Source: Promethearchaeota archaeon (lineage in GTDB: Archaea > Asgardarchaeota > Lokiarchaeia > Sigyniarchaeales > SOKP01). From it: 64,000 nucleotides of DNA. Under the pieces are notes generated by a model. It saw only the letters and a list, made by a program, of their open reading frames with translations. It did no database searches and was not told the DNA's origin. Each line of letters starts with the position of its first letter. Position 1 is the stretch's first letter. This document shows positions 10,369 to 23,113 of the stretch, piece after piece. Location of the stretch: the NCBI GenBank assembly GCA_048940925.1, contig JBHLOC010000028.1, forward strand, positions 1-64,000, written 5' to 3'. The position numbers were made by a program, and so were the translations under genes.

Positions 10369-12594
10369 ATGAAAAGAATAAATGAATTAATCTTCTTTTT
10401 GGTTCTTTTTTGCTGTATAAGTGGTATTTTTCAAAATTATCCAATTTTTCTGAAGAATTTAGAAATAAATACACGAACTCTTAACAATGATATCGATAAT
10501 CTTAATAAATTTCAAGATTTACACATAGGCAATTCAATCTATTCAAGTTATAATCTATCAGTGGAATTAGATAATTTAACTTCTACATTAGAAGGTAAAT
10601 TAGAAGTAGATTTTTATAATAATGATCAAGTGAATTTTAGTAAACTTCCTTTTCATATTTATTTATCTGGTATGAATTTCACTTCCAGACCTGGAAAAAT
10701 TGATATTATTGACGTCAACAAGTCAGATAAAACACCTTTAGTTTATGAAGTATACCCCCAAAACCAAACCATGTGGATACATTTAGATACCAAGCTAGAA
10801 CCTTTACAGAGAACCTTATTTGATATTTACTTCAATGCAACACTGCCTGATGGTGGAATTGACAGATCAAATTCTCATGGTAATAATTATGATCAATCTC
10901 GAATCTATAAATGTGCTGGATTTTACCCTATGCCATGTGTTTATGATATTTATGATGGTTGGAATACAGATCCATATCTGCATATTGGAGATCCATTTTA
11001 TTTTGATATGGCTTATTATGATTTTTACATTACTGTGCCTAATGGAATGGTTGTCGCTGCCACAGGAAAGTTAATTGAGAAAGTAAGTGATGGTTTTTTA
11101 ACAACCTATTATTTCAATCCAAACCATCCCGTGAGAGAAGTAACATTTTCAGCATCAACATGGTTTTATGTGGAATCTACTTTGGTTAATGGAGTTAATG
11201 TTTCTACCTATTATTTACCAAAATCTCAGTTTATATGGGAAAATAACGCATTAATTTACGCTATTCAAGCTTTAACTCTTTTTAATGACACATTTGGTGA
11301 ATATCCATATCCAACACTTAATATTGTCGAAGAGTACACATATTTTGGAGGTATGGAATATCCATGCCAAGTTTATATAACTGAATCTATCGATTATTGG
11401 TCTAATCCTCAATACTGGCTTGAACTTATAATTGCTCATGAGGTGTCTCATCAATGGTGGTATAATTTAATAGGAAATGACGAAGTTGATTGGGGATTTT
11501 TGGATGAGGGTCTCGCTGTTTGGTCTGAAAGTTATTATGCAGAAATTTTTTATGGAAACTGGATATATTTTCAATATCCTCCTTGGATTGATGAAGTAAG
11601 AAATTATTATGCTGTTACAGGATTACCTTCAAAAATCAATGCTTCTGTATATAACGCTGTTAATGCAGATAATTATTATTATACTGCTTATACAAAAGCT
11701 CCATTAATTATTGAACAATTGCGCAGAAATATTGGTAATGCATCATTTATAGATGGATTGAAATATTATTACAACCAAAAAGTATACAAAATAGCAATGT
11801 TGTCAGATTTACAGCTTTCTATGGAGACAGTATATGGTAAATCTTTAGATTGGTTTTTTTTTCCCTGGTTTGATAATTTTTATCTTCCTAAATACAATTT
11901 TATCTCATGTACATATGATATGAAACAAAAAGTCTTGAAACTTACAATAAATGATTTAAACGAACCTCTTAACCCATACTCCTATTCTCAACAAGTTCCT
12001 CTGAGTTTATATGATAAGAATAATAATATGATATTCAATGATATATTTTGGATAAATGGAACTACATCATTGCAAATTTCGATAACAAATACACCTAATA
12101 AGGTGAGATTAATTTATACTGATGATGTTCTGGTTCAACTTGATTCTCCTTCTAAACTATATATAGAATCTCCTGTAGAGACTGTAGGCTTTCAAAATCC
12201 TGGATCCTTTACATTATCTAGCGATGCAGATGATCCAGATACAGACGGGGCTTTTAATCTTATATGGACTGATTCTGATGGAGCAGATAATTACTCTATT
12301 TATCTACATAATAGTAAAATTACAGAAATAAACGAAACACTCACGACAGTTGTTTCTCAAACTGCAGTATCACCCTTTTCAATAACAGGACTATCAAGCG
12401 GTGATTATTATTATATAATTGTAGCTTATAATGAAACAGGTCAAACAATGTCCAACTGTATTCATATTACGGTTAAAAAGGGTGGGGCTGATAGGGGGAT
12501 TCCAGGGTATAATTCAGCTCTCCTTATTGGTGTTCTTTTTGCTATATCAATACTAATCTATAAAAAAGTAAATGAATTAATTAAGAATTCCTAA
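10369..12594 (+). CDS. Secreted M1 family metallo-aminopeptidase with FN3-like domain and GIPGY anchor
   Basis: GGMEY exopeptidase motif, HEVSHQWW...FLDEG zinc motif, YTKA; C-terminal GIPGY+TM+basic tail. Confidence 0.92.
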   Translation: MKRINELIFFLVLFCCISGIFQNYPIFLKNLEINTRTLNNDIDNLNKFQDLHIGNSIYSSYNLSVELDNLTSTLEGKLEVDFYNNDQVNFSKLPFHIYLSGMNFTSRPGKIDIIDVNKSDKTPLVYEVYPQNQTMWIHLDTKLEPLQRTLFDIYFNATLPDGGIDRSNSHGNNYDQSRIYKCAGFYPMPCVYDIYDGWNTDPYLHIGDPFYFDMAYYDFYITVPNGMVVAATGKLIEKVSDGFLTTYYFNPNHPVREVTFSASTWFYVESTLVNGVNVSTYYLPKSQFIWENNALIYAIQALTLFNDTFGEYPYPTLNIVEEYTYFGGMEYPCQVYITESIDYWSNPQYWLELIIAHEVSHQWWYNLIGNDEVDWGFLDEGLAVWSESYYAEIFYGNWIYFQYPPWIDEVRNYYAVTGLPSKINASVYNAVNADNYYYTAYTKAPLIIEQLRRNIGNASFIDGLKYYYNQKVYKIAMLSDLQLSMETVYGKSLDWFFFPWFDNFYLPKYNFISCTYDMKQKVLKLTINDLNEPLNPYSYSQQVPLSLYDKNNNMIFNDIFWINGTTSLQISITNTPNKVRLIYTDDVLVQLDSPSKLYIESPVETVGFQNPGSFTLSSDADDPDTDGAFNLIWTDSDGADNYSIYLHNSKITEINETLTTVVSQTAVSPFSITGLSSGDYYYIIVAYNETGQTMSNCIHITVKKGGADRGIPGYNSALLIGVLFAISILIYKKVNELIKNS

Positions 12595-12728
12595 TTTTTT
12601 TCAATTTTATTTTTCTTTTTTTAACTATGAAATTTTAGATTAGATCTATAGATTGATACTTTTTAAGAGAAATAAATATATCACTTCTAATTTTTTTAAT
12701 TAAAAGGAGAATGGTCCCTCCCCCCGGA

Positions 12729-12757
12729 ATCTAGCTAGATCCGAATTAGATCCATAT
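12729..12757 (-). other. tRNA-Tyr intron 2 (non-canonical 59/60 position, 29 nt)
   Basis: Removal restores T loop CUCGAAU; central helix CUCG/CUAG, bulges AA|A and AU|U, intron stem UGGAUCU/GGAUCUA. Confidence 0.85.
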
Positions 12758-12779
12758 TTCGAGCCGGGGACCGCTCGGT

Positions 12780-12834
12780 TTCAATTTCGACTGACGTATC
12801 TTCATTAGCTACAGGCTTTAATACGCGATATTAT
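12780..12834 (-). other. tRNA-Tyr intron 1 (canonical 37/38 position, 55 nt)
   Basis: Removal restores the 7-nt loop CUGUAGA; relaxed BHB with central helix CUGU/AUUG and bulges AG|A and AA|A. Confidence 0.85.
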
Positions 12835-13132
12835 CTACAGCCGAGCACTCTGACCACTGAGTTAGGGAGGGAATATGGTTTAAAATTAAATAGTAAATTA
12901 ATTAATTTATTTTTTATTATTTCCAATTTAGAGTACATAATAACAAGCATTTTTACAATATTTTCTTTTTTAACTAAAAAAATACTCTATTTTGTTTAAG
13001 AAAACTTATTAAACAAAAAATTTTCCTATATTATTAACATATAAATTTCAATAAAAAATCGCAAACTACTTTTGTTGTGAAAAAATTTTATTATTTAATA
13101 GTCTTATAAAATTATACTAATATTTTTTAGAA

Positions 13133-13138: not shown

Positions 13139-13144
13139 TTAATA

Positions 13145-13654
13145 ATTAGAGAAGAGACCGATTATACTGAAAGCATTGAGAGTTATAAAGACGATCCTAG
13201 TGTCATTTTAGAGCCATGGGGTAGAAGTATAGATCATTTAAGACTTACTATCATTGGGAAGAAGGGAACTCCTTACGCAGATGGAAAGTTCGTTTTTGAA
13301 ATCAAATTCCCTGAGAATTACCCGTTCGCACCTCCCTATGCTTATGCAGTTACTTTAATGTGGCATCCTAACATTGATTCATCTATTCCCCCAGGAAAAT
13401 TGAATATATGTCTAGATTTAATTAATCCAGATCTAGTAGGTAAAGTGGATGCAAGTACTGGAGCAAGCGGTTGGACACCTTCAAAAACACTAACTAATAT
13501 TATTGAAGCTTTAAAAGGGATGATGCATATGGAACCTCCCTTCTTTAATCCTGGAGATCCCCTTAACCATGAAGCCGGTGAACAATATTTTCGTGCTTTA
13601 AAGAAATTTGAAGCTAAGGCTAAAAGTTGGACAGCCAAATATGCCATGGATTAA
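13145..13654 (+). CDS. Ubiquitin-conjugating enzyme E2 (UBC fold), probable ATT start, about 169 aa
   Basis: Frame is open upstream of the tracked ORF: IREETDYTESIESYKDDPSVILEPWGRSIDHLRLTIIGKKGTPYADGKFVFEIKFPENYPFAPP...MWHPNID...ICLDLI...WTP. No in-frame ATG/GTG/TTG between the TGA at 13136 and 13358. Confidence 0.9.
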   Translation: MREETDYTESIESYKDDPSVILEPWGRSIDHLRLTIIGKKGTPYADGKFVFEIKFPENYPFAPPYAYAVTLMWHPNIDSSIPPGKLNICLDLINPDLVGKVDASTGASGWTPSKTLTNIIEALKGMMHMEPPFFNPGDPLNHEAGEQYFRALKKFEAKAKSWTAKYAMD

Positions 13655-14970: not shown

Positions 14971-16584
14971 TCACATAAAAGTGATTATCACATTATATTT
15001 TTTAATTTCTGATTCTGCAAGTGCTTTTCCTAAAGGAGTTAATGTAATAATATCATTAGATTTTACTTTTATTGAAGTTAATTTGATATCAGGATCTTTT
15101 AGTGAGGGCATGTATGGATTCCAATATATCTCTTTAGTCATTGGATTAGTAATCATCCAAAATTCTGGATCCAAATTATATCCTGAAACCTCCATTGCGT
15201 TAAATATATAACCAATATCAGCATCAAAAGGCACTACAATTTGTACATTTTCCTCACCTTCGATCTTTCCGCATGCTAAACAATCATCCCTTTTTATTAT
15301 ATTTAAATGATCAAATTGACCATAAATACCATTGTAGTTTATGTAAGGAGGATCCATGGGAGATCCAATATTTCTACCATTAACACGAAACAATAGTTTG
15401 AGTGCTTCTTGAGATTGAATACTTGCAATTACGGAACTGACAGTCTGAATCGCTGCTATTTTATTGCCAAGAATATTTTCCATTTCTTCAAATTTGTAAT
15501 CTGGACCAAATGTATTTCTTATATTATTTTTCCATTCTTTAATCTCTTCTTCAGTTAATGTCTTTCTTCTCTCTGGATTAACATTTTCATTAAAAACTCG
15601 TTCTCTTAATTGCTCTAATTCTTCTTGAGCTAATTCTTTTAATTTAAGAACGTCACTATTTAAATTAAGATCAGGTTTATGTCCATACTTTTTTTCAAAA
15701 CTAACTTCAGCTTTTATAACACAATGATTTCTATTTCGAGGTAAACCTTTTAATGTGCATGCTGCAACTAATTTATCATCAGCTGGAGGAATTGGTACTA
15801 AGCATCTGTAACATGGCGTTTGATCTAAAAATTCTGGGGCGTATTTCCAGTCAAAAACCATTTCAATTTCTTTTCTAAATTTTTCTTTTAAGGGGTTAAT
15901 TTTTTCTTCAATTAATTGTTCTATTTCCTCTTCGAGTTCTTCAATTCTTTTCTTAGCTTGAAAATATTCGGGATATTCCATATCAGTAATCTCCCATAAT
16001 CTCTCTTGCACTAAATTATCAATTTCTCTTTCTTTATCTTTATATTGTATACCAGAACCATCAGGAATTACAATTTGAACATGACCCTCGAATCCGACAG
16101 TACCACCTTCAATCATCGGTTTTTTTAGTCTAAGACAGATTTTATTTAAGTCTAATCTAGCGTTAAAATTATCTAATGCTGCAATTATTACATCTGCTTC
16201 CTCATATACCGCTATAGGAAGTTTCTGAAGTTTTTCAAAATAAAAATCAACCTTTAAAAAAGGATTCATTTCTTTCAATCGTTCCGCTGCTACTTCTGCT
16301 TTAGGTCGTCCCTCATCTCCAGGTTTGAATAGCATTTGTCTAGATAAATTTGATGTTTCAATAGTATCTAAATCAACTAAGATCAGCTTACCTATTCCCA
16401 TCAGAGCGAAATCTTTTGCAATTTCACAGCCTTTCACGAAAATTATTATTTATAATATTCTTAATGCGCCTACTCCGATGATTAAGATACATCCCTTATT
16501 TATAACATCTTGATCCCAGCCATCAATTAATTGTTGTCGGGCATACATCCGCAACTTTACTAAATCTTCTACTTTTTCTGTCAT
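14971..16584 (-). CDS. Ubiquitin-activating enzyme E1 (Uba3/Uba1-like, ThiF family), split by a 30-nt insert; exon 1 16584-16462, exon 2 16431-14971; 527 aa if spliced
   Basis: Exon 1 MTEKVEDLVKLRMYARQQLIDGWDQDVINKGCILIIGVGAL joins GCEIAKDFALMGIGKLILVDLDTIETSNLSRQMLF; CYRC and CLAC zinc pairs; catalytic-type CTLKGLPRNRNHC; C-terminal ubiquitin-fold-like domain. Confidence 0.9.
16432..16461 (-). other. Putative bulge-helix-bulge mRNA intron in E1 (30 nt, in-frame TAA)
   Basis: AGAATATTATAAATAATAATTTTCGTGAAA lies between GCA TTA and GGC TGT GAA; it folds GGC-GCAU-UA|A-GAAUAUUAU-loop-AUAAUUUUC-GUGA-AA|G-GCU. Confidence 0.75.
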
Positions 16585-16738: not shown

Positions 16739-19700
16739 TTATTCTCTTTTTTTTTTACCTTTATCAGCTTCTTTAATCAATTTTTTGAGACTATCTATTT
16801 CTTCTCTTTCTTTATCTCGTTTTAATTTCTCTTCTTCTTTCTTTTTTTCTTTTGCCCTTTTACCTATCTCATCAATAAGTTCTTGTTTAATTTTAATTAA
16901 ATCACTCATTTTTTTTCTAAATTCTTTTGCCTCGAGTTTAATTTGTTCCTTTTGTTCTTTATCTTTTGATTTTGCTTTACTTAATCCCTCCTCAATCAAT
17001 TTCATAATTTTATCTGTTTCATTACTAACTTCACTAATTGCTTGTTCCATTTCAGCATCTTTAACTTCTCTTCTTCTTTTTTCTAATATCCGTTGGTTTT
17101 CTAATTGTTTTTGAATTTCATTAATTCTTGATTCCTCAGCTTTAATTCTAGTTTCCAGAATTTTAGTATTTTTTATTTCTGATTCGATATATTTAATTTC
17201 TTCTTGCCATCCAATTTCTTTAAATTTGGAAATAGCGTTATTAAACTTTTCATATGCATTTTCAAAATCATGATATGCTACTAGTTTCTTTCCTTCATCA
17301 ATGAATTTTAATCCCTCATCTCTTATTTGACCAAAATGTTTTTTCTTAACAAATAGTTCCCTATATTGTTTTTCTTGTTCACGTTTTAGTAGTTCTTGTT
17401 CTAATCTTCTCCTTCTTACCTCTTCCTGGAACTTTTCATATTCTATTTGTCTTTGTATTCGAGTTTCTTCTTCTAACTTCTTCTTTTTAAAGTAATTAAC
17501 TTGTTCTTGCTGTAAATCTTTGAGTAAAGCATTTAAATTATTTATTTCTGGCTCCCATCCTATATTTTCAGCTAAAATATTTCTTGCTTGAACGTATAAA
17601 GAAATTGCATTATTAAAATCTGGAGTAAGTTGTTTCAAGTATTTTCCAGCTTCATCGAGCAAAGAATAAGCAGATTCCCTGACACTCATCTGTTCTTGAA
17701 TCATTTTTTCCCTTTGTTTTTGAGCTAATAATTGTGCTTTTTTCTTTTCTTCTTCTTGCCTTTTTCTTTCATCTATAAGAATTTTTAATGCTTTTTCTTC
17801 TTTTAATCTGTCAATTTCTTTTTGAATTTTTAATTCTTCTTGCTCTTCTCTTTGCTTTATTAATTTATTTACCTTTAGAATCATATTATTTATAGAATCT
17901 GTAGGAAACTGTAATTCATTTAGAATTAATCCCGCTTTTCTATAACTTTCAATAGCTTTCTTATATTTCGATGCTTTTAGAAATTTTTCTGCATCATCAA
18001 GTATGTTAAATGCATGTTCTTTCCTCATTTCAAGTCTAGCTTTCAATTCATTTCTTTCTTGGATCTTTATTTGCTTATTCTGTAATCTTTCTTTTTCTAA
18101 TTGAAGAGAATTAGAGATATTTTGTTCAAATTCCCACACTTCTCTTTCTCTCTGTATACTTAATTGTAAATCATTTTGTATTTGTATTAGATGTTCTTTT
18201 TTCTTCTCTTGGACTTTTTGAATAGTCTCTCTAATTGCTTCTGTAGGAAATGAAATTTCGTTTAAAATTAACTCTGCTGAATGATAATATTCAAGTGCTT
18301 TATCATATTGTGCTTGATTCATATATATCTCTGCTTCATCTAGTATCCTAAAAGCATCGTCTTTTCTTTTTTCCATGTAAGCACGATACTTATTTTGTCT
18401 TTCAAGTTCGATTTGTTTACTCTTCATTTTTAACTCATTAATTTTTATATTTTCAGCTATTTTTTGTTGAAATTCAAATTGTTCACGGTCTTTCTGGAAT
18501 TTAGATTTTAATTCCATTTGCTTTCTAGTCAAATCTTCCCTGCTTTTCATTTGAACTTTATAAATCATTTCTCTAATCAAATTAGTCGGAAAACCTATCT
18601 CACTTAAGATTAATTCTGCTTTACGATACATTTCAGTCGTTTTATCGTATTCAGCTTGTTTTAACAAATTTTCAGCATGATCCATAATTTCAAAGGCTTC
18701 TAATTTACGTGATTCCATTTTCTGTAATAGGTTCTTGCGTTCTTGAATTTTTAATTCTTTTACTTCCAATCTTTTCTTTTCTCTTAGTATACTCTCAGAG
18801 ATCTTGGATTGAAATTGTTGTTGTTCTTGCTGTTGTTTAATCTTCAATTCTTTTTCTAATTCCTCCTGTCTTTCCAGATCACTTTTTCTCTTTTCAATTG
18901 TAGCTATTGTATTAGTTAATAATTTTAAATATTCACTGGTCCAACCTATTTCATTTAATATTTGAATAGCATGTTGGTAACTTACTATTGCATTATCAAA
19001 ATCTTGATGTTTAAGAGATTCATACCCATTATTAATCAAATTAAAAGCCTCTTGTTGTTTCATTAAGTTTTGAGCACTTATGAGTTTTTGACTTTTTAAA
19101 TTCTCTTCTTCCTCTATAGCCATTGCTCGTTCTCTATTTCTGTATAATTGTATTTGTTCCATAAATTCATAATTCTCCTTTTCCTTATTTATAGAATCCT
19201 GTAATAATTTTGCATTTAGTGTATCATCTTCTCTCTTTCTTTGTAAAATATTCTGAATTGCATTTTCAAGAATAGGAATTTCATCATTCCATTGAATTTG
19301 GGCAAAAATATTAGCCACATCTCGATAAATCTCAATAACATCTTCAAATTTTCCCTGTGAAAGAAAATTGTTAGCCTTATCCAATAGTTTAAATCCTTCT
19401 TCTCTTTTTTCTTCCCTAAATGCTAACTCTTCTTCCTGTTTTCTTAATATTATCTCTCTTTGTCTTAATTTTTCACTTCGGGTTTTCATATCTTCTAACA
19501 CAAGTTTATGAAACAATTTATCCTCCTTTTCTCGCTCAAGACTAGCTTTTAATTCCATCTGTTTTTTAAGTTCTGTCTCACCTTTTTTATTCTTAACCTC
19601 ATTAATAGCTCTTTGAATCAAATCAATTTCATCATCCCATTGAATCTCTTTAAAAACCTCAGTAGCCTTCTGATATAGTATAATTGCATCATCAAAATTG

Positions 19701-22700
19701 CTCTGTTCAATATTCTTTTGCGCTTTTTCTAAAAGATTGAACGCGTCTTCTTTTCTTTTTTCAATAAATAATCTCTTTTCTTCCTGTTTTCTTAGTTTTT
19801 CTTCCTTCTCTCTCATTTTAAGTTGTTCTAATTTCATTTGTTCCGCTATCTTTTGCTGGATTAACTTATCTTCCTGTTCTCTTCTAAGATTTAATTCAAG
19901 TGCTTCAATTTTCTTTATATCATCATCTTTCTTTTTCTCCTGAATTTTTTGAATAGTTTCTCTAATGATATTAGTAGGAAAAGAAATTTCATTTAATAAT
20001 AGTTCTGCTTTACGATAATGTTCAATCGAATTATCATATTCACCCCGCTTTAATGATTTTTCAGCTTGATCCATAGCCTTAAAAGCTTCTACTTTATGGA
20101 TTTCCATTTGCTTAACTAATTCTTCACGTTTCTGAATTTCAAATTCCTTAGCTTCTAATCTTTCTTTTTCATTTTTTATATAAGTAGAAATTTTATTTTG
20201 GAATTGCTCCTCTTCTTTTTGACGATTTAATGCCATTTCAAATTCCAATTGTTTTTCTTTTTCCTTTTTCTCCTTTCTTTCTTGAATGGTTTGAATCGTT
20301 TCTTTTAACAATTTTAAATAATCTTCTCGCCACCCTATTCCTTTTAAGATTATTATAGCATTTTTATACTTTTCTAAAGCTTCATTGAACTTTTCCTCTT
20401 TGAGATAATTATCGGTCTGTTCAAAAATTTTAAATGCTCTTTCTTGTTCAACAAGATTTAGTGCTGAAATATTTTTCTCTTTTTCAAGCTTTTTTTGCTC
20501 TTCTAAAGCTTGTACCTTTTCTCTTTCTCTTTGAACTAATATCTTGTTCATAAATACTTTATCTGCTGTTTCTTTTTCAATTGCTTGTTTTAATAATTTT
20601 TGTTTATTAAGTTCATTCTCTCTCTTTTTCTCTTTAATATCATCTATTGTAGTTTGAATAATTGGAATTTCTTCTATCCATTGTATCTGGGCAAATATAT
20701 TTGCTATATCATAATAGATTTCAATAGCATCGTCAAATTTTCCAAAAGAAAGGAAATTTTGAGCTTTTTCTAACAAATCAAATGCTTCATTCTTTTTACT
20801 TTCTTGATAAATTCTCAATTTTTCTTTTTCCATTAAAGTAAATTCTTTTTCTTTCAATTTTTCACTTTGGGCTTTCAAATCTCTAGTGATAAGTTCTTGA
20901 AACCTTTTATTCTCTTTTTCACGCTCAAAGTCGGCTTGAATTTTCAATTGTTTTTGCAATTTGGCCTCTTTTTTCTGATTTTCAATTTCTATTATAGAAT
21001 TTTGAATTAAGCTTATTTCATTTTTCCAATTTGCGTCTGCAAAAAAATTGATAGCATACCGCAATATTTCAATAGCATCATCAAAATGACCTTGTTTTAA
21101 ATTTTCCTGTGATTCTTCTAATAATTTAAAACCTGCTATTCTTCTTTCTTCACGTATTTGTAATTCTTTCTCCTGTTCTCTTAACTGAATTTCTTGTCTT
21201 TTCAGTTTTTCCTTTTCTTGTTTTAAATGTTTAGTAATTTGCTTTTGAAAAGCTTCTTCCTTTTTTTCTCTTTCTAGAGCATCTTGCATCTTTTTTTGTC
21301 TTAAAATCTTTTGATCACTTTGCAATTTTTCCACTTGGTGTATAGAACTTTCAATTAAAGGAATTTCCTCAGTCCATCGTATTTCAGCAAAAATATTGCC
21401 GGCATTTTGGTATGCCTCTATAGCGTTATCATATTCTCCTCTTTTCACAAAATTTAATGCTGAATCTAAAAACTCAAAAGCTTTTTCCCTTCTCTCTTTA
21501 AAATATTTTACTTCTACTTCTTTTTCCTTTAAAACTATCTCTCTTTTTTTTAATTGCTCACGCTCTTTATTTAATTGAGTAGCAATTTGCTTCTGGAAAT
21601 CAACTTCAGCTTGTTTACTTTTTTCCAATCGTTTTTGATCCTCATATTGCATCTTTAGTCTAGCATTTTTAAGCTTCTCAATATTTAATATTGTATTTTT
21701 AATTGTGTTGATGTAAGTTTCCCAACCTGCTCCTAAATCCTCTAAAATTACCAATGCTTTCTGATACTCATTAATAGCTCCTTCAAAGTTTTTTTCCTTC
21801 AAAATATCATCTGCTTTATCTAAAATCTTAAAGAGATCTTTCTCTTTTTCTAGATAAACTTTCCTTTTTAATTCAAATTCTTCTCTCTTATTCTCTAATT
21901 CTTTAGCAGATTCTATCGCCTGCTTCATTTCCTTTAAATAAATAGATTCTTGAACTCTGAACAATTCTTTTTCTCGTTTTTCTTTAAGAAGTTCAGAATT
22001 TTTTTCTCTTTCTTGCTTTTCCTTGATACTACTTATTAAATTAATTACTGGTTGAATATAAGAATCCCATTCTATAGATTTAAGGAGCTGAATTGCTTCT
22101 TCAAGTTTCTCGATTGCTTTATTATATTCTCTTTCTCTTTCAAACTTTTTTCCTATATCAATTAAATTGAAAGCTTTAATTTGTACTTGCTCTTCAATTC
22201 TTTTGCGTTCTTCAAACTCAATAAGTTTATTTCTTTGCAAGTCTGCTTCTGAATTTAATGCTTCAGAGTCTTCCTCAATTTTACTAGTTATCGGTGTTAT
22301 AGCTTGTTTTTGTTGAATTTGAAATTTTTCAATCTGTTCTTTATCTCTTTTAAGTTTTTCGATAATCGTTAAGATATTCTGAGTTTGGGCAGTCCAGCCT
22401 ATGGAATTTAATAATTGGACTGCTTCTTTATAATTGTTAATTGCATTATCAAACTTTCTTTCCTTTTCAAAAACCTTGGCTTTATCAATAAGGGAGAAAG
22501 CTTCATTTTGTACTTCCTCTTCATGTTTCTTCTGTTCTCTATATCTAGCAATCGTTTCTGCTTTCTCTGGAGCTGATTTTTCTCCAAACATTCCAACAAT
22601 TTGAGGTGATTCATCCATCTGGGGTTGTGAGATTTTTTCTAATGAAATCTTTTCCTGTTGTTGTTTTAATTGAAATTCTTTTTGCTGCTTGATATTACTA

Positions 22701-23113
22701 GCTAGATTTTTTATTTTTTCTCTCAAATTTTCTAATTGTAACTCAGACCAACCAGATTGGGATAATAAATTAATAGCAGACATATATTGTTGAATAGCTT
22801 CTTCATAATAACCGTTAGATTCTAATTCTTTTGCTCCTTCTAATATTGAAAAAGCTTGATCTTGAATATGTTCTAATTGCGCTTGAATCTGAGTTCGTTC
22901 ATATAATTTTTCTTGTTTAAGAAAATTATTTAATTCTTCTATTCTTTCATATATATCTTTAATTCTATGAGTTAATACTCCACTCTGCTTTAGATATTCG
23001 GCAGCCTTTTGATAATGAGATATTGCCTTTTCTGCCTTACGCTCTTCTTCAAAACCTTGAGCTAGTTCTAAAAATTTTAAGGCTTCCTGAGCTAATTCAT
23101 CTGGATTATGCAT
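16739..23113 (-). CDS. Giant (2124 aa) helical repeat protein: about 18 MIT/TPR-like bundles joined by charged helices
   Basis: Repeated AFxLLDxA...xxFDxAIxxYxxAxxILxxIGW units separated by E/K/Q/R-rich spacers. Confidence 0.85.
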   Translation of the reverse strand: MHNPDELAQEALKFLELAQGFEEERKAEKAISHYQKAAEYLKQSGVLTHRIKDIYERIEELNNFLKQEKLYERTQIQAQLEHIQDQAFSILEGAKELESNGYYEEAIQQYMSAINLLSQSGWSELQLENLREKIKNLASNIKQQKEFQLKQQQEKISLEKISQPQMDESPQIVGMFGEKSAPEKAETIARYREQKKHEEEVQNEAFSLIDKAKVFEKERKFDNAINNYKEAVQLLNSIGWTAQTQNILTIIEKLKRDKEQIEKFQIQQKQAITPITSKIEEDSEALNSEADLQRNKLIEFEERKRIEEQVQIKAFNLIDIGKKFEREREYNKAIEKLEEAIQLLKSIEWDSYIQPVINLISSIKEKQEREKNSELLKEKREKELFRVQESIYLKEMKQAIESAKELENKREEFELKRKVYLEKEKDLFKILDKADDILKEKNFEGAINEYQKALVILEDLGAGWETYINTIKNTILNIEKLKNARLKMQYEDQKRLEKSKQAEVDFQKQIATQLNKEREQLKKREIVLKEKEVEVKYFKERREKAFEFLDSALNFVKRGEYDNAIEAYQNAGNIFAEIRWTEEIPLIESSIHQVEKLQSDQKILRQKKMQDALEREKKEEAFQKQITKHLKQEKEKLKRQEIQLREQEKELQIREERRIAGFKLLEESQENLKQGHFDDAIEILRYAINFFADANWKNEISLIQNSIIEIENQKKEAKLQKQLKIQADFEREKENKRFQELITRDLKAQSEKLKEKEFTLMEKEKLRIYQESKKNEAFDLLEKAQNFLSFGKFDDAIEIYYDIANIFAQIQWIEEIPIIQTTIDDIKEKKRENELNKQKLLKQAIEKETADKVFMNKILVQREREKVQALEEQKKLEKEKNISALNLVEQERAFKIFEQTDNYLKEEKFNEALEKYKNAIIILKGIGWREDYLKLLKETIQTIQERKEKKEKEKQLEFEMALNRQKEEEQFQNKISTYIKNEKERLEAKEFEIQKREELVKQMEIHKVEAFKAMDQAEKSLKRGEYDNSIEHYRKAELLLNEISFPTNIIRETIQKIQEKKKDDDIKKIEALELNLRREQEDKLIQQKIAEQMKLEQLKMREKEEKLRKQEEKRLFIEKRKEDAFNLLEKAQKNIEQSNFDDAIILYQKATEVFKEIQWDDEIDLIQRAINEVKNKKGETELKKQMELKASLEREKEDKLFHKLVLEDMKTRSEKLRQREIILRKQEEELAFREEKREEGFKLLDKANNFLSQGKFEDVIEIYRDVANIFAQIQWNDEIPILENAIQNILQRKREDDTLNAKLLQDSINKEKENYEFMEQIQLYRNRERAMAIEEEENLKSQKLISAQNLMKQQEAFNLINNGYESLKHQDFDNAIVSYQHAIQILNEIGWTSEYLKLLTNTIATIEKRKSDLERQEELEKELKIKQQQEQQQFQSKISESILREKKRLEVKELKIQERKNLLQKMESRKLEAFEIMDHAENLLKQAEYDKTTEMYRKAELILSEIGFPTNLIREMIYKVQMKSREDLTRKQMELKSKFQKDREQFEFQQKIAENIKINELKMKSKQIELERQNKYRAYMEKRKDDAFRILDEAEIYMNQAQYDKALEYYHSAELILNEISFPTEAIRETIQKVQEKKKEHLIQIQNDLQLSIQREREVWEFEQNISNSLQLEKERLQNKQIKIQERNELKARLEMRKEHAFNILDDAEKFLKASKYKKAIESYRKAGLILNELQFPTDSINNMILKVNKLIKQREEQEELKIQKEIDRLKEEKALKILIDERKRQEEEKKKAQLLAQKQREKMIQEQMSVRESAYSLLDEAGKYLKQLTPDFNNAISLYVQARNILAENIGWEPEINNLNALLKDLQQEQVNYFKKKKLEEETRIQRQIEYEKFQEEVRRRRLEQELLKREQEKQYRELFVKKKHFGQIRDEGLKFIDEGKKLVAYHDFENAYEKFNNAISKFKEIGWQEEIKYIESEIKNTKILETRIKAEESRINEIQKQLENQRILEKRRREVKDAEMEQAISEVSNETDKIMKLIEEGLSKAKSKDKEQKEQIKLEAKEFRKKMSDLIKIKQELIDEIGKRAKEKKKEEEKLKRDKEREEIDSLKKLIKEADKGKKKRE

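What the first reader, a model, noticed from the sequence alone, without database searches (positions are those of the whole stretch)
16420..16584. Candidate bulge-helix-bulge (tRNA-type) intron in the mRNA of the ubiquitin E1 gene
Seen: the tracked E1 ORF starts at MKGCEIAK and lacks the first Rossmann strand. In the same frame upstream, ATG 16584 gives MTEKVEDLVKLRMYARQQLIDGWDQDVINKGCILIIGVGAL, then 30 nt reading RIL*IIIFVK, then GCEIAK. Deleting exactly 16432-16461 rebuilds IGVGALGCE, the glycine-rich motif of ThiF/E1 enzymes. The junctions fold with BHB geometry: exon helix GGC/GCU, central helix GCAU/GUGA (3 of 4 pairs), bulges UA|A and AA|G, intron stem GAAUAUUAU/AUAAUUUUC (8 of 9 pairs). 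Cutting after the second nucleotide of each bulge, the EndA rule, gives precisely this deletion. Both flanks are otherwise intact and there is no target-site duplication. Known: archaeal EndA/RtcB splice BHB introns, and crenarchaeal cbf5 is the classic mRNA case. Inference: E1 synthesis, and so the ubiquitin cascade, depends on the tRNA splicing machinery. This would be a stop-containing gate conceptually like non-spliceosomal HAC1/XBP1 splicing.
Basis: partly seen in the sequence, partly recalled or inferred. Interest (0 to 1): 0.96.

Follow-up and report, generated by a model that had tools for sequence, protein, structure and literature searches.

The report
tRNA-type mini-intron in Asgard E1 gene
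A 30-base, stop-containing insert in the ATP-binding loop of an Asgard archaeon's ubiquitin-activating (E1) gene has the shape cut by the tRNA-splicing enzyme, is held in shape by compensatory mutations in eleven related alleles, and is precisely absent from most sister species, so it is very probably a spliced mRNA intron, one of several in this genome and not a special switch.

Summary
Observation confirmed. On the minus strand the E1 (ThiF/UBA-like) gene reads ATG 16584-16462, then a 30-nt insert with an in-frame TAA (16461-16432), then 16431-14971. Thirty-seven intron-less orthologs from the same genus read IIGVGALGCEIAK without a gap. They fix the insert's ends independently, and those ends coincide with the cut sites (between bulge nt 2 and 3) of a relaxed bulge-helix-bulge motif. 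Eleven distinct public alleles carry an insert of exactly 30 nt at this site. The proposed pairs hold in 86% of cells (28-51% in slid registers), and three pairs show changes on both sides. Both exons are under strong purifying selection (omega 0.04-0.25, dS 0.08 to above 1). The GTG 'start' of the tracked ORF is lost in 6 of 11 alleles. The genome encodes EndA alpha and beta and RtcB. Its only family-level aIF2-gamma, purA and gyrB matches carry similar inserts, so such inserts must be removed. The best reading is an EndA/RtcB-spliced mRNA intron (about 0.85). No RNA data could be obtained. The 'HAC1-like gate' idea is not supported: the intron is patchy among species and similar introns sit in housekeeping genes. 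The scan had already found this kind of intron on other DNA of this genome (aIF2-gamma) and noted this same E1 insert from an overlapping window.

The parts
16462..16584 (-). Exon 1 of the E1 gene: ATG plus 40 codons, ending IIGVGAL (first Rossmann strand and first half of the glycine-rich motif)
   Evidence: Conserved and open in all orthologs. omega 0.04-0.25. The ThiF profile match extends to position 10 when the stop is read through.
16432..16461 (-). 30-nt intron with in-frame TAA. It holds the third nt of bulge 1, a 9-bp hairpin with a 5-nt loop, the 3' strand of the central helix, and the first two nt of bulge 2.
   Evidence: It is exactly 30 nt in 11 distinct alleles and absent without a scar in 37 orthologs.
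14971..16431 (-). Exon 2 of the E1 gene (GCEIAK... to the stop at 14971-14973), 486 codons
   Evidence: Pfam ThiF E 1.7e-51. The best solved relatives are the UBA1/UBA6/UBA3/SAE2 adenylation domains, E down to 1.7e-29. omega 0.035-0.12.
16462..16470 (-). Exonic 5' half of the motif: outer helix GGC (16470-16468), central helix GCAU (16467-16464), and the first two nt of bulge 1, UA (16463-16462). The cut falls after 16462.
   Evidence: outer helix paired in 100% of cells; central pair A-U (5 alleles) or G-C (6 alleles).
16428..16437 (-). 3' half of the motif: central helix GUGA (16437-16434), bulge 2 AA|G (16433-16431, cut after 16432), outer helix GCU (16430-16428)
   Evidence: This GUG is the 'start' of the tracked ORF. 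It reads GCG or ACG in 6 of 11 alleles, each time keeping the pairing.
16472..16481 (-). 5' strand of a predicted 10-bp exon-exon helix that would clamp the two exons below the motif
   Evidence: RNAalifold consensus. It is 10/10 pairs in all five GTDB intron-bearing alleles and 7-10/10 in intron-less orthologs. Its function is inferred only.
16398..16407 (-). 3' strand of that exon-exon helix. A small exon-2 hairpin (16408-16413 with 16420-16425) lies between it and the motif.

Best explanation
The 30 nt at 16432-16461 are an archaeal bulge-helix-bulge (BHB) intron in the pre-mRNA of a eukaryote-like E1 (ThiF/UBA) gene of a Promethearchaeota (Loki-type Asgard) genome. The transcript folds so that the last bases of exon 1 pair with the 3' end of the insert (central helix) and with the first bases of exon 2 (outer helix), while the body of the insert forms a 9-bp hairpin. 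The heteromeric splicing endonuclease (EndA alpha2beta2) cuts between the second and third nucleotide of each 3-nt bulge. RtcB then joins the exons to give GCA UUA|GGC UGU, which restores the GxGxxG loop and a 527-aa E1. Unspliced mRNA can give only a 44-residue peptide. Splicing is most likely constitutive, and the intron is one of a set of about 30-nt introns in coding genes of this lineage. Shown here: the anatomy, the same-site presence or absence among species, covariation, selection on both exons, and the presence of the enzymes. Inferred: the cleavage and ligation themselves.
For: (1) 37 intron-less orthologs in the genus read IIGVGALGCEIAK without a gap. Five GTDB genomes carry a 30-nt insert at exactly this codon boundary. 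(2) Public metagenomes and MAGs add more, giving 11 distinct insert sequences, all 30 nt. 14 of the 120 best protein clusters are truncated 476/488/490-aa predictions of this kind. Independent assemblies rule out misassembly. (3) Structure counts on the 11 alleles: 86.4% of cells paired against 28-51% in slid registers. Three pairs changed on both sides: central helix A-U 5 / G-C 6; hairpin closing pair G-C 8 / G.U 1 / A-U 2; and one mismatch repaired to G.U or U-A. 0 of 500 shuffles reach the covariation score. (4) The published rule for cbf5 places the cut between bulge nt 2 and 3 (PMC2738675). That cut is the only one giving Leu-Gly in all alleles. (5) Purifying selection among intron-bearing genes: exon 2 omega 0.035-0.12, exon 1 0.04-0.25, with dS 0.53-0.66 inside the clade that shares the intron by descent. 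The intron differs at only 1-3 of 30 nt where synonymous sites differ at 38-44%. (6) The GTG that starts the tracked ORF is GCG or ACG in 6 of 11 alleles. (7) G000 has two EndA paralogs, one with the Tyr/His/Lys catalytic residues and one without the His, plus RtcB. Asgard EndA is reported as the broad-specificity (alpha-beta)2 type with the L1 loop (PMC5829648). (8) Each family search found one match for aIF2-gamma (over its curated cut-off), purA and gyrB in this genome, whose completeness is estimated at 100%, and all three are interrupted in the same way: GHVDHG^KTT by 30 nt, WG^DEGKGK by 31 nt, and gyrB by a longer insert. The cell must therefore remove such inserts. (9) The neighbouring E2 gene carries 30-32-nt inserts at two other sites in four congeners. 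I hand-checked the G018 insert and it has a fully paired 4-bp central helix.
Against: The central helix has an invariant unpaired G.A, so the motif is relaxed, not canonical. Minimum-free-energy folding does not favour the BHB register, and its energy is no better than that of shuffles. The covariation rests on few independent events among related sequences. My genome-wide BHB-plus-ORF scan gave no excess over frame-shifted decoys, so the other introns are shown only case by case.
Confidence: 0.85

Rival explanations
1. The intron is real, but its splicing is regulated. It would act as a switch that couples E1 synthesis, and hence ubiquitin-like conjugation, to the state of the tRNA-splicing machinery or to stress, in the manner of HAC1/XBP1.
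For: Every one of the 11 alleles keeps an in-frame stop, so unspliced mRNA gives no E1. E2 in the closest relative G018 is interrupted as well.
Against: The intron is present in only 5 of 46 congeneric genomes with the gene, so most species do without it. Inserts of the same design sit in aIF2-gamma, purA, gyrB and an EF-2 paralog, which argues for a general, constitutive process. Stops are expected by chance in ten AU-rich codons. A second E1-like/E2-like pair exists on contig C30.
Confidence: 0.08
2. The gene is expressed in two pieces or from an internal start. A 44-aa N-terminal peptide and a 488-aa protein starting at GTG 16437 would be made without any splicing.
For: Gene callers and public annotation predict exactly this: a 41-45-aa ORF plus a 476/488/490-aa 'ThiF family adenylyltransferase'.
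Against: GTG is replaced by GCG or ACG in 6 of 11 alleles, and the next in-frame ATG removes the whole glycine motif. The split would fall inside GxGxxG. This model does not explain the covariation with exon 1, the fixed 30-nt length, or the exact match to BHB cut sites.
Confidence: 0.03
3. The insert is a disabling insertion and E1 is a pseudogene in these lineages.
For: There is an in-frame stop in the nucleotide-binding loop. A paralogous E1-like gene exists.
Against: omega is 0.035-0.25 for both exons at dS 0.08 to above 1, and no further lesion occurs in any of 11 alleles. The insert itself is conserved in length and in pairing.
Confidence: 0.02
4. The insert stays in the mRNA and the ribosome passes it by stop read-through or hopping.
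For: The insert is a multiple of three and holds a hairpin, as the T4 gene 60 gap does (from my own knowledge, not tested).
Against: The encoded ten residues are not conserved (RIL*IIIFVK, GIL*TIIFVK, RRL*ELIFAN and others). They would sit inside the GxGxxG loop. No matching take-off and landing codons flank the insert. The base changes conserve pairing, not codons.
Confidence: 0.01
5. The insert is an assembly or sequencing artefact.
For: None beyond the fact that the source is a metagenome-assembled genome.
Against: The same insert appears in independent assemblies from NCBI, ENA, JGI and Logan, with lineage-specific substitutions.
Confidence: 0.01

Closest known systems
cbf5 pre-mRNA intron of Crenarchaeota (Desulfurococcales/Sulfolobales; Watanabe 2002, Yoshinari 2006, Yokobori 2009 = PMC2738675)
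   Same: [quoted passage not shown] The cut is predicted between bulge nt 2 and 3. The host has a hetero-oligomeric EndA. The distribution among relatives is patchy and has been read as gain and loss.
   Different: The gene differs (E1/ThiF) and so does the phylum (Asgard/Promethearchaeota). The length is uniform at 30 nt. The insert is in phase 0 with an in-frame stop. The intron-bearing alleles share an unusually conserved 75-nt exon tract (30 nt of exon 1 plus 45 nt of exon 2). Splicing of cbf5 was shown by cDNA and in vitro cleavage; here it is inferred.
BHB introns of Asgard tRNA genes (bioRxiv 10.64898/2026.10.13.758758; PMC5829648)
   Same: They use the same motif and presumably the same enzymes. 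This genome has introns in 22 of the 34 tRNAs that ARAGORN called. They show repeated gains and a patchy distribution.
   Different: The host RNA here is an mRNA with no tRNA body to help recognition. The ARAGORN-called tRNA introns vary from 9 to 89 nt, whereas six of the ten coding-gene inserts I read are exactly 30 nt.
HAC1/XBP1 unconventional mRNA splicing (Ire1 plus tRNA ligase/RtcB)
   Same: It is non-spliceosomal. Cuts fall in stem-loop structures, the exons are joined by a tRNA-type ligase, and the protein's reading frame depends on the splice.
   Different: The endonuclease is Ire1, not EndA, and it is stress-regulated. The cut sites lie in 7-nt loops, not 3-nt bulges. No sign of regulation was seen here. 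This is a functional analogy only, drawn from my own knowledge.
EndA-dependent cleavage of a Haloferax volcanii mRNA (PMC7714728)
   Same: It shows that archaeal EndA acts on BHB motifs outside tRNA and rRNA in vivo.
   Different: Per the paper's introduction, it concerns one mRNA in a euryarchaeon that is cleaved by the splicing endonuclease, not a coding-frame-restoring intron like this one.

Membership tests
Archaeal BHB (EndA-type) intron, strict hBHBh' form | [quoted passage not shown] | tested here: not met
   Both bulges are 3 nt, but the central helix has 3 pairs plus a G.A that is unpaired in all 11 alleles.
Archaeal BHB intron, relaxed form accepted by (alpha-beta)2 EndA | A BHB-like fold with flanking helices h and h', each with at least two Watson-Crick pairs (definition in PMC7714728) | tested here: met
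   h is C-G, G-C, G.U, paired in 100% of cells. h' is a 9-bp hairpin, 87% paired. The central helix is 75% paired.
Archaeal BHB intron | Cuts between the 2nd and 3rd nt of each bulge give the exact exon junction | tested here: met
   The rule comes from PMC2738675. The predicted junction equals the gap-free sequence of 37 intron-less orthologs, and it is the only register giving Leu-Gly in all 11 alleles.
Archaeal BHB intron | Pairing maintained in evolution (covariation) | tested here: met
   Three pairs have changes on both sides, in 8 cells. 0 of 500 shuffles reach the covariation score. Slid registers pair in 28-51% of cells against 86%. Caveat: the independent events are few.
Archaeal BHB intron | The host encodes the splicing endonuclease and the RNA ligase | tested here: met
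   Two PF01974 genes are present, one with catalytic Tyr/His/Lys and one lacking the His, plus one RtcB at 556 bits.
Archaeal BHB intron | The intron is excised and the exons are ligated in RNA | not testable with these tools
ThiF/E1 adenylating enzymes | Rossmann-type adenylation domain with an intact glycine-rich GxGxxG loop | tested here: met
   Pfam ThiF E 1.7e-51 for exon 2. The match extends from profile position 10 when read through. The loop GVGALG is intact only after removal of the 30 nt. UBA1/UBA6 are the best solved relatives.
HAC1/XBP1-type regulated splicing | A signal-activated endonuclease and condition-dependent splicing | not tested
   No expression data were available. The patchy distribution and the similar introns in housekeeping genes argue against a dedicated switch.

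The most novel reading that the evidence does not exclude
Loki-type Asgard archaea of this genus run a general, EndA/RtcB-dependent mRNA-splicing regime. Mostly about 30-nt hairpin introns (one of 53 nt) interrupt at least several coding genes, often inside nucleotide-binding motifs: E1, E2, aIF2-gamma, EF-2, purA and gyrB. These introns differ between sister species. They travel or are erased together with about 75 nt of flanking exon, so short-tract recombination of an intron cassette would be a route of intron gain and loss in the closest prokaryotic relatives of eukaryotes.
Probability: 0.55. Interest if true: 0.9.

Novelty: new member of a known kind. Interest (0 to 1): 0.74.

Why it matters
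In the literature I could search, cbf5 of Crenarchaeota is the only established coding-gene BHB intron. An E1 intron in an Asgard archaeon extends protein-gene splicing by the tRNA machinery to the lineage closest to eukaryotes and to a eukaryote-signature pathway. It also has a practical side. Public annotation reports this E1 as truncated 476-490-aa proteins plus a 41-45-aa orphan ORF, so Asgard gene inventories and ubiquitin-system reconstructions mis-call such genes. The same-site presence or absence among species that are about 80-90% identical across this gene, with an abnormally conserved exon tract, gives a concrete handle on how archaeal introns arrive and leave. The 2026 tRNA-intron preprint names that as the central open problem.

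Tried and rejected

(2) Thermodynamics: single-sequence folds are no better than shuffles. MFE folds of longer segments choose different registers in different alleles. My hard-constraint string was faulty, and I ignored its output.

(3) Genome-wide census: I scanned all end pairs for BHB geometry (2.07 million hits). I then filtered for ORF fusion, long flanks and a codon-usage score. In every version the true rule and the frame-shifted decoys gave equal counts, so the scan yields no reliable number of coding introns. It served only to point me to cases that I then read by eye.

(4) Repeat or mobile-element origin: blastn-short of the intron with its flanks finds no second copy in the genome. 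There is no target-site duplication. Rfam and ARAGORN find nothing in the window.

(5) Alternative start, pseudogene, read-through and artefact models were rejected for the reasons given under the rival explanations.

(6) Direction of change, gain or loss: the tree needs 6 changes, at least 4 of them forced. Basal lineages carry the intron, while G019 is nested among intron-less genomes. I could not decide between an ancestral intron with many precise losses and lateral spread.

(7) I spent the one metagenome pattern scan on the intron-bearing form. A scan for the spliced junction in metatranscriptome assemblies was therefore no longer possible.

Full report
WHAT IS THERE. The window is contig C87 of a 4.8-Mb, 29.6% G+C genome in 90 contigs. 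Related records are titled Promethearchaeota or Promethearchaeia MAGs, that is, Loki-type Asgard archaea. On the minus strand, ATG 16584 opens 41 codons that end ...IIGVGAL at 16462. Thirty bases follow (16461-16432) whose fourth codon is TAA. The frame then continues from 16431 with GCEIAK... for 486 codons to the stop at 14971. Exon 2 is a ThiF-family adenylation domain (Pfam E 1.7e-51, matched from profile position 32). When the genome is searched with stops read through, the match runs back to position 10 across the insert. The nearest solved structures are the active adenylation domains of UBA1, UBA6, UBA3 and SAE2. A UBC-fold E2 (PF00179, E 7.4e-26) lies 1.3 kb away. The only corrections are that the hairpin loop is 5 nt and that one position of the central helix (G.A) never pairs.

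IS IT MORE THAN CHANCE? Folding energy alone says nothing (z -0.14 and -0.62 against shuffles). The weight comes from an independent definition of the insert's ends. In 46 of 54 genomes of the same genus the gene is present. Of the 42 full-length copies I read, 37 read IIGVGALGCEIAK with no gap, and five carry 30 extra bases at exactly this codon boundary. Those ends fall between the second and third nucleotide of two 3-nt bulges that flank a 4-position helix. That is the cut position reported for the cbf5 pre-mRNA intron (PMC2738675). In this genome an arbitrary pair of ends meets comparable geometry about 2 times in 1000, and about 1 time in 10,000 with a hairpin of 6 bp or more.

COMPARATIVE TEST OF THE STRUCTURE. 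Pattern scans of public genomes and metagenomes, a protein search, and contig look-ups gave 11 distinct versions of the insert from NCBI, ENA, JGI and Logan assemblies. All are exactly 30 nt and all hold an in-frame stop. On their alignment (A3) the proposed pairs form in 86.4% of cells, against 28-51% when the 3' partners are slid by 1-3 columns. Three pairs changed on both sides. The central-helix pair is A-U in five alleles and G-C in six; the exonic change is a synonymous GCA to GCG. The pair closing the hairpin runs G-C, G.U, A-U. A U.U mismatch becomes G.U or U-A. None of 500 shuffles reaches the covariation score. The outer helix is invariant. The two bulge bases on the retained side of each cut are invariant, and the variable bases are the first and last nucleotide of the intron. 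These sequences are related and the independent events are few, so I treat this as solid support but not proof.

IS THE GENE ALIVE? Within the clade that shares the insert by descent (G000, G018, G067), synonymous divergence is 0.28-0.66, while omega is 0.07-0.12 for exon 2 and 0.12-0.25 for the 41-codon exon 1. Across lineages, omega is 0.035-0.09. No allele has another lesion. The intron differs at 1-3 of 30 positions where synonymous sites differ at 38-44%. A decaying insertion is therefore excluded. The internal-start model also fails. The GTG used by the ORF track is part of the central helix and reads GCG or ACG in six alleles. Gene callers then fall back on an ATG that deletes the whole glycine motif (476-aa predictions). 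The ten codons of the insert are not conserved as protein, and no take-off and landing codon pair exists, so read-through or hopping is unlikely.

CAN THE CELL DO IT? G000 has two EndA paralogs. One has the catalytic Tyr, His and Lys, and the other lacks the His. This fits the (alpha-beta)2 enzyme reported for Asgard archaea, which carries the L1 loop that gives broad specificity (PMC5829648). G000 also has one RtcB. ARAGORN calls introns in 22 of its 34 tRNA genes. More telling are the interrupted housekeeping genes. The only aIF2-gamma match over the family cut-off is interrupted inside GHVDHG^KTT by a 30-nt hairpin insert. The only purA match is interrupted inside WG^DEGKGK by 31 nt with a GGGG/CCCC central helix. 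The only gyrB match is interrupted before RRRPAMYIG. An EF-2 paralog is interrupted before DEEQERGITI. The genome's completeness is estimated at 100% (with 8.4% contamination), so it cannot have lost all of these genes; such inserts must be removed from RNA. Earlier notes of this scan pointed me to these cases. I re-read each one in the sequence myself.

HOW IT PROBABLY WORKS. The transcript pairs the last bases of exon 1 with the 3' end of the intron and with the first bases of exon 2. EndA cuts in both bulges, and RtcB joins UUA to GGC. This restores GVGALG and a 527-aa E1 equal in length to the intron-less orthologs. RNAalifold also predicts a 10-bp helix between exon 1 (16472-16481) and exon 2 (16398-16407), plus a small exon-2 hairpin. 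That helix is 10/10 in the five GTDB intron-bearing alleles scored and invariant in the six aligned. It is 7-10/10 in intron-less ones, so the site may have been predisposed to present a BHB. Its role is inferred, not shown.

HISTORY. On a gene tree built without the flanking tract, the 11 intron-bearing alleles need six changes, at least four of them forced by well-supported branches. The basal lineages and one whole clade carry the intron. Single carriers sit in three otherwise intron-less clades, one of them (G019) nested with 100/100 support. In the 75 nt around the site, diversity among the five GTDB intron-bearing alleles is 0.43 of their gene-wide value. Random sets of intron-less alleles give 1.06, with a minimum of 0.71 in 3000 draws. 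G019 differs from its sister in this tract at 17 positions where 8 are expected, but from distant carriers at 5-7 where 16-17 are expected. Either the intron moves or is erased together with a short exon tract by homologous recombination, or the splicing structure constrains synonymous sites well beyond the motif. Both readings fit an active intron. I cannot separate them.

WHAT IT IS NOT. Most congeners lack the intron. Introns of similar design sit in housekeeping genes. The E2 gene is intact here but carries 30-32-nt inserts at two other sites in four relatives. A second E1-like/E2-like pair lies on contig C30. The simplest view is a constitutive, tolerated intron.

NOVELTY AND LIMITS. In the searchable literature, cbf5 is the only coding-gene BHB intron, and no paper describes such introns in Asgard mRNAs. 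The library lacks most subscription journals. By kind this is a new member of a known class. The uniform 30-nt module, the location in a eukaryote-signature gene, and the cassette-like exon tract are new details.

Noticed in passing
window 13139-13654 (+): The UBC-fold E2 gene (PF00179) has no ATG/GTG/TTG before its mid-domain Met. GGTGA lies a few bases before an in-frame ATT. The aligned codon is ATT, ATC or TTG in the four relatives I aligned (G018, G042, G012, G041), so a conserved non-ATG start is likely.
   Followed up: partly
L072 (G018:C78:52300-53100), L073 (G042), L074 (G012), L075 (G041): The E2 ortholog carries a 30-nt stop-containing insert before the codons for EPPFF in G018 and G042, and a 31-32-nt insert after FPE in G012 and G041. 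I hand-checked the G018 insert: it has a fully paired 4-bp central helix and closing outer pairs. G000 has neither insert.
   Followed up: partly
G000 contigs: C68:45858-45887(-), C41 near 44580(-) = L089:2740-2775, C83 near 10700-10770(+) = L091:1445-1510, C32:27895-27924(-), C17:5106-5135(+) = C57:77604-77633(-), C30:66095-66124(+): Other coding genes of this genome are interrupted by short hairpin inserts at conserved motifs: aIF2-gamma, purA, gyrB, an EF-2 paralog, an acyl-CoA-synthetase-like gene present on two contigs, and a gene reading FPFLCGFHV^TRAALRDLY. Most inserts are exactly 30 nt, and several fall inside nucleotide-binding loops.
   Followed up: partly
window about 12700-12875 (-): A G+C-rich stretch looks like a tRNA gene broken by inserts. 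ARAGORN without the intron option found no tRNA in the window.
   Followed up: no
window 16739-23113 (-): A 2124-aa, highly repetitive, charged helical protein lies directly upstream of E1. The same neighbour, with faint MIT/TPR hits, flanks E1 on the public contigs.
   Followed up: no
public protein records: 14 of the 120 closest public clusters are 476-, 488- or 490-aa 'ThiF family adenylyltransferase' predictions. These are truncated because annotation pipelines do not recognise the intron. Several MAGs of this genus are labelled Hermod-, Hod- or Thorarchaeota in their records.
   Followed up: partly
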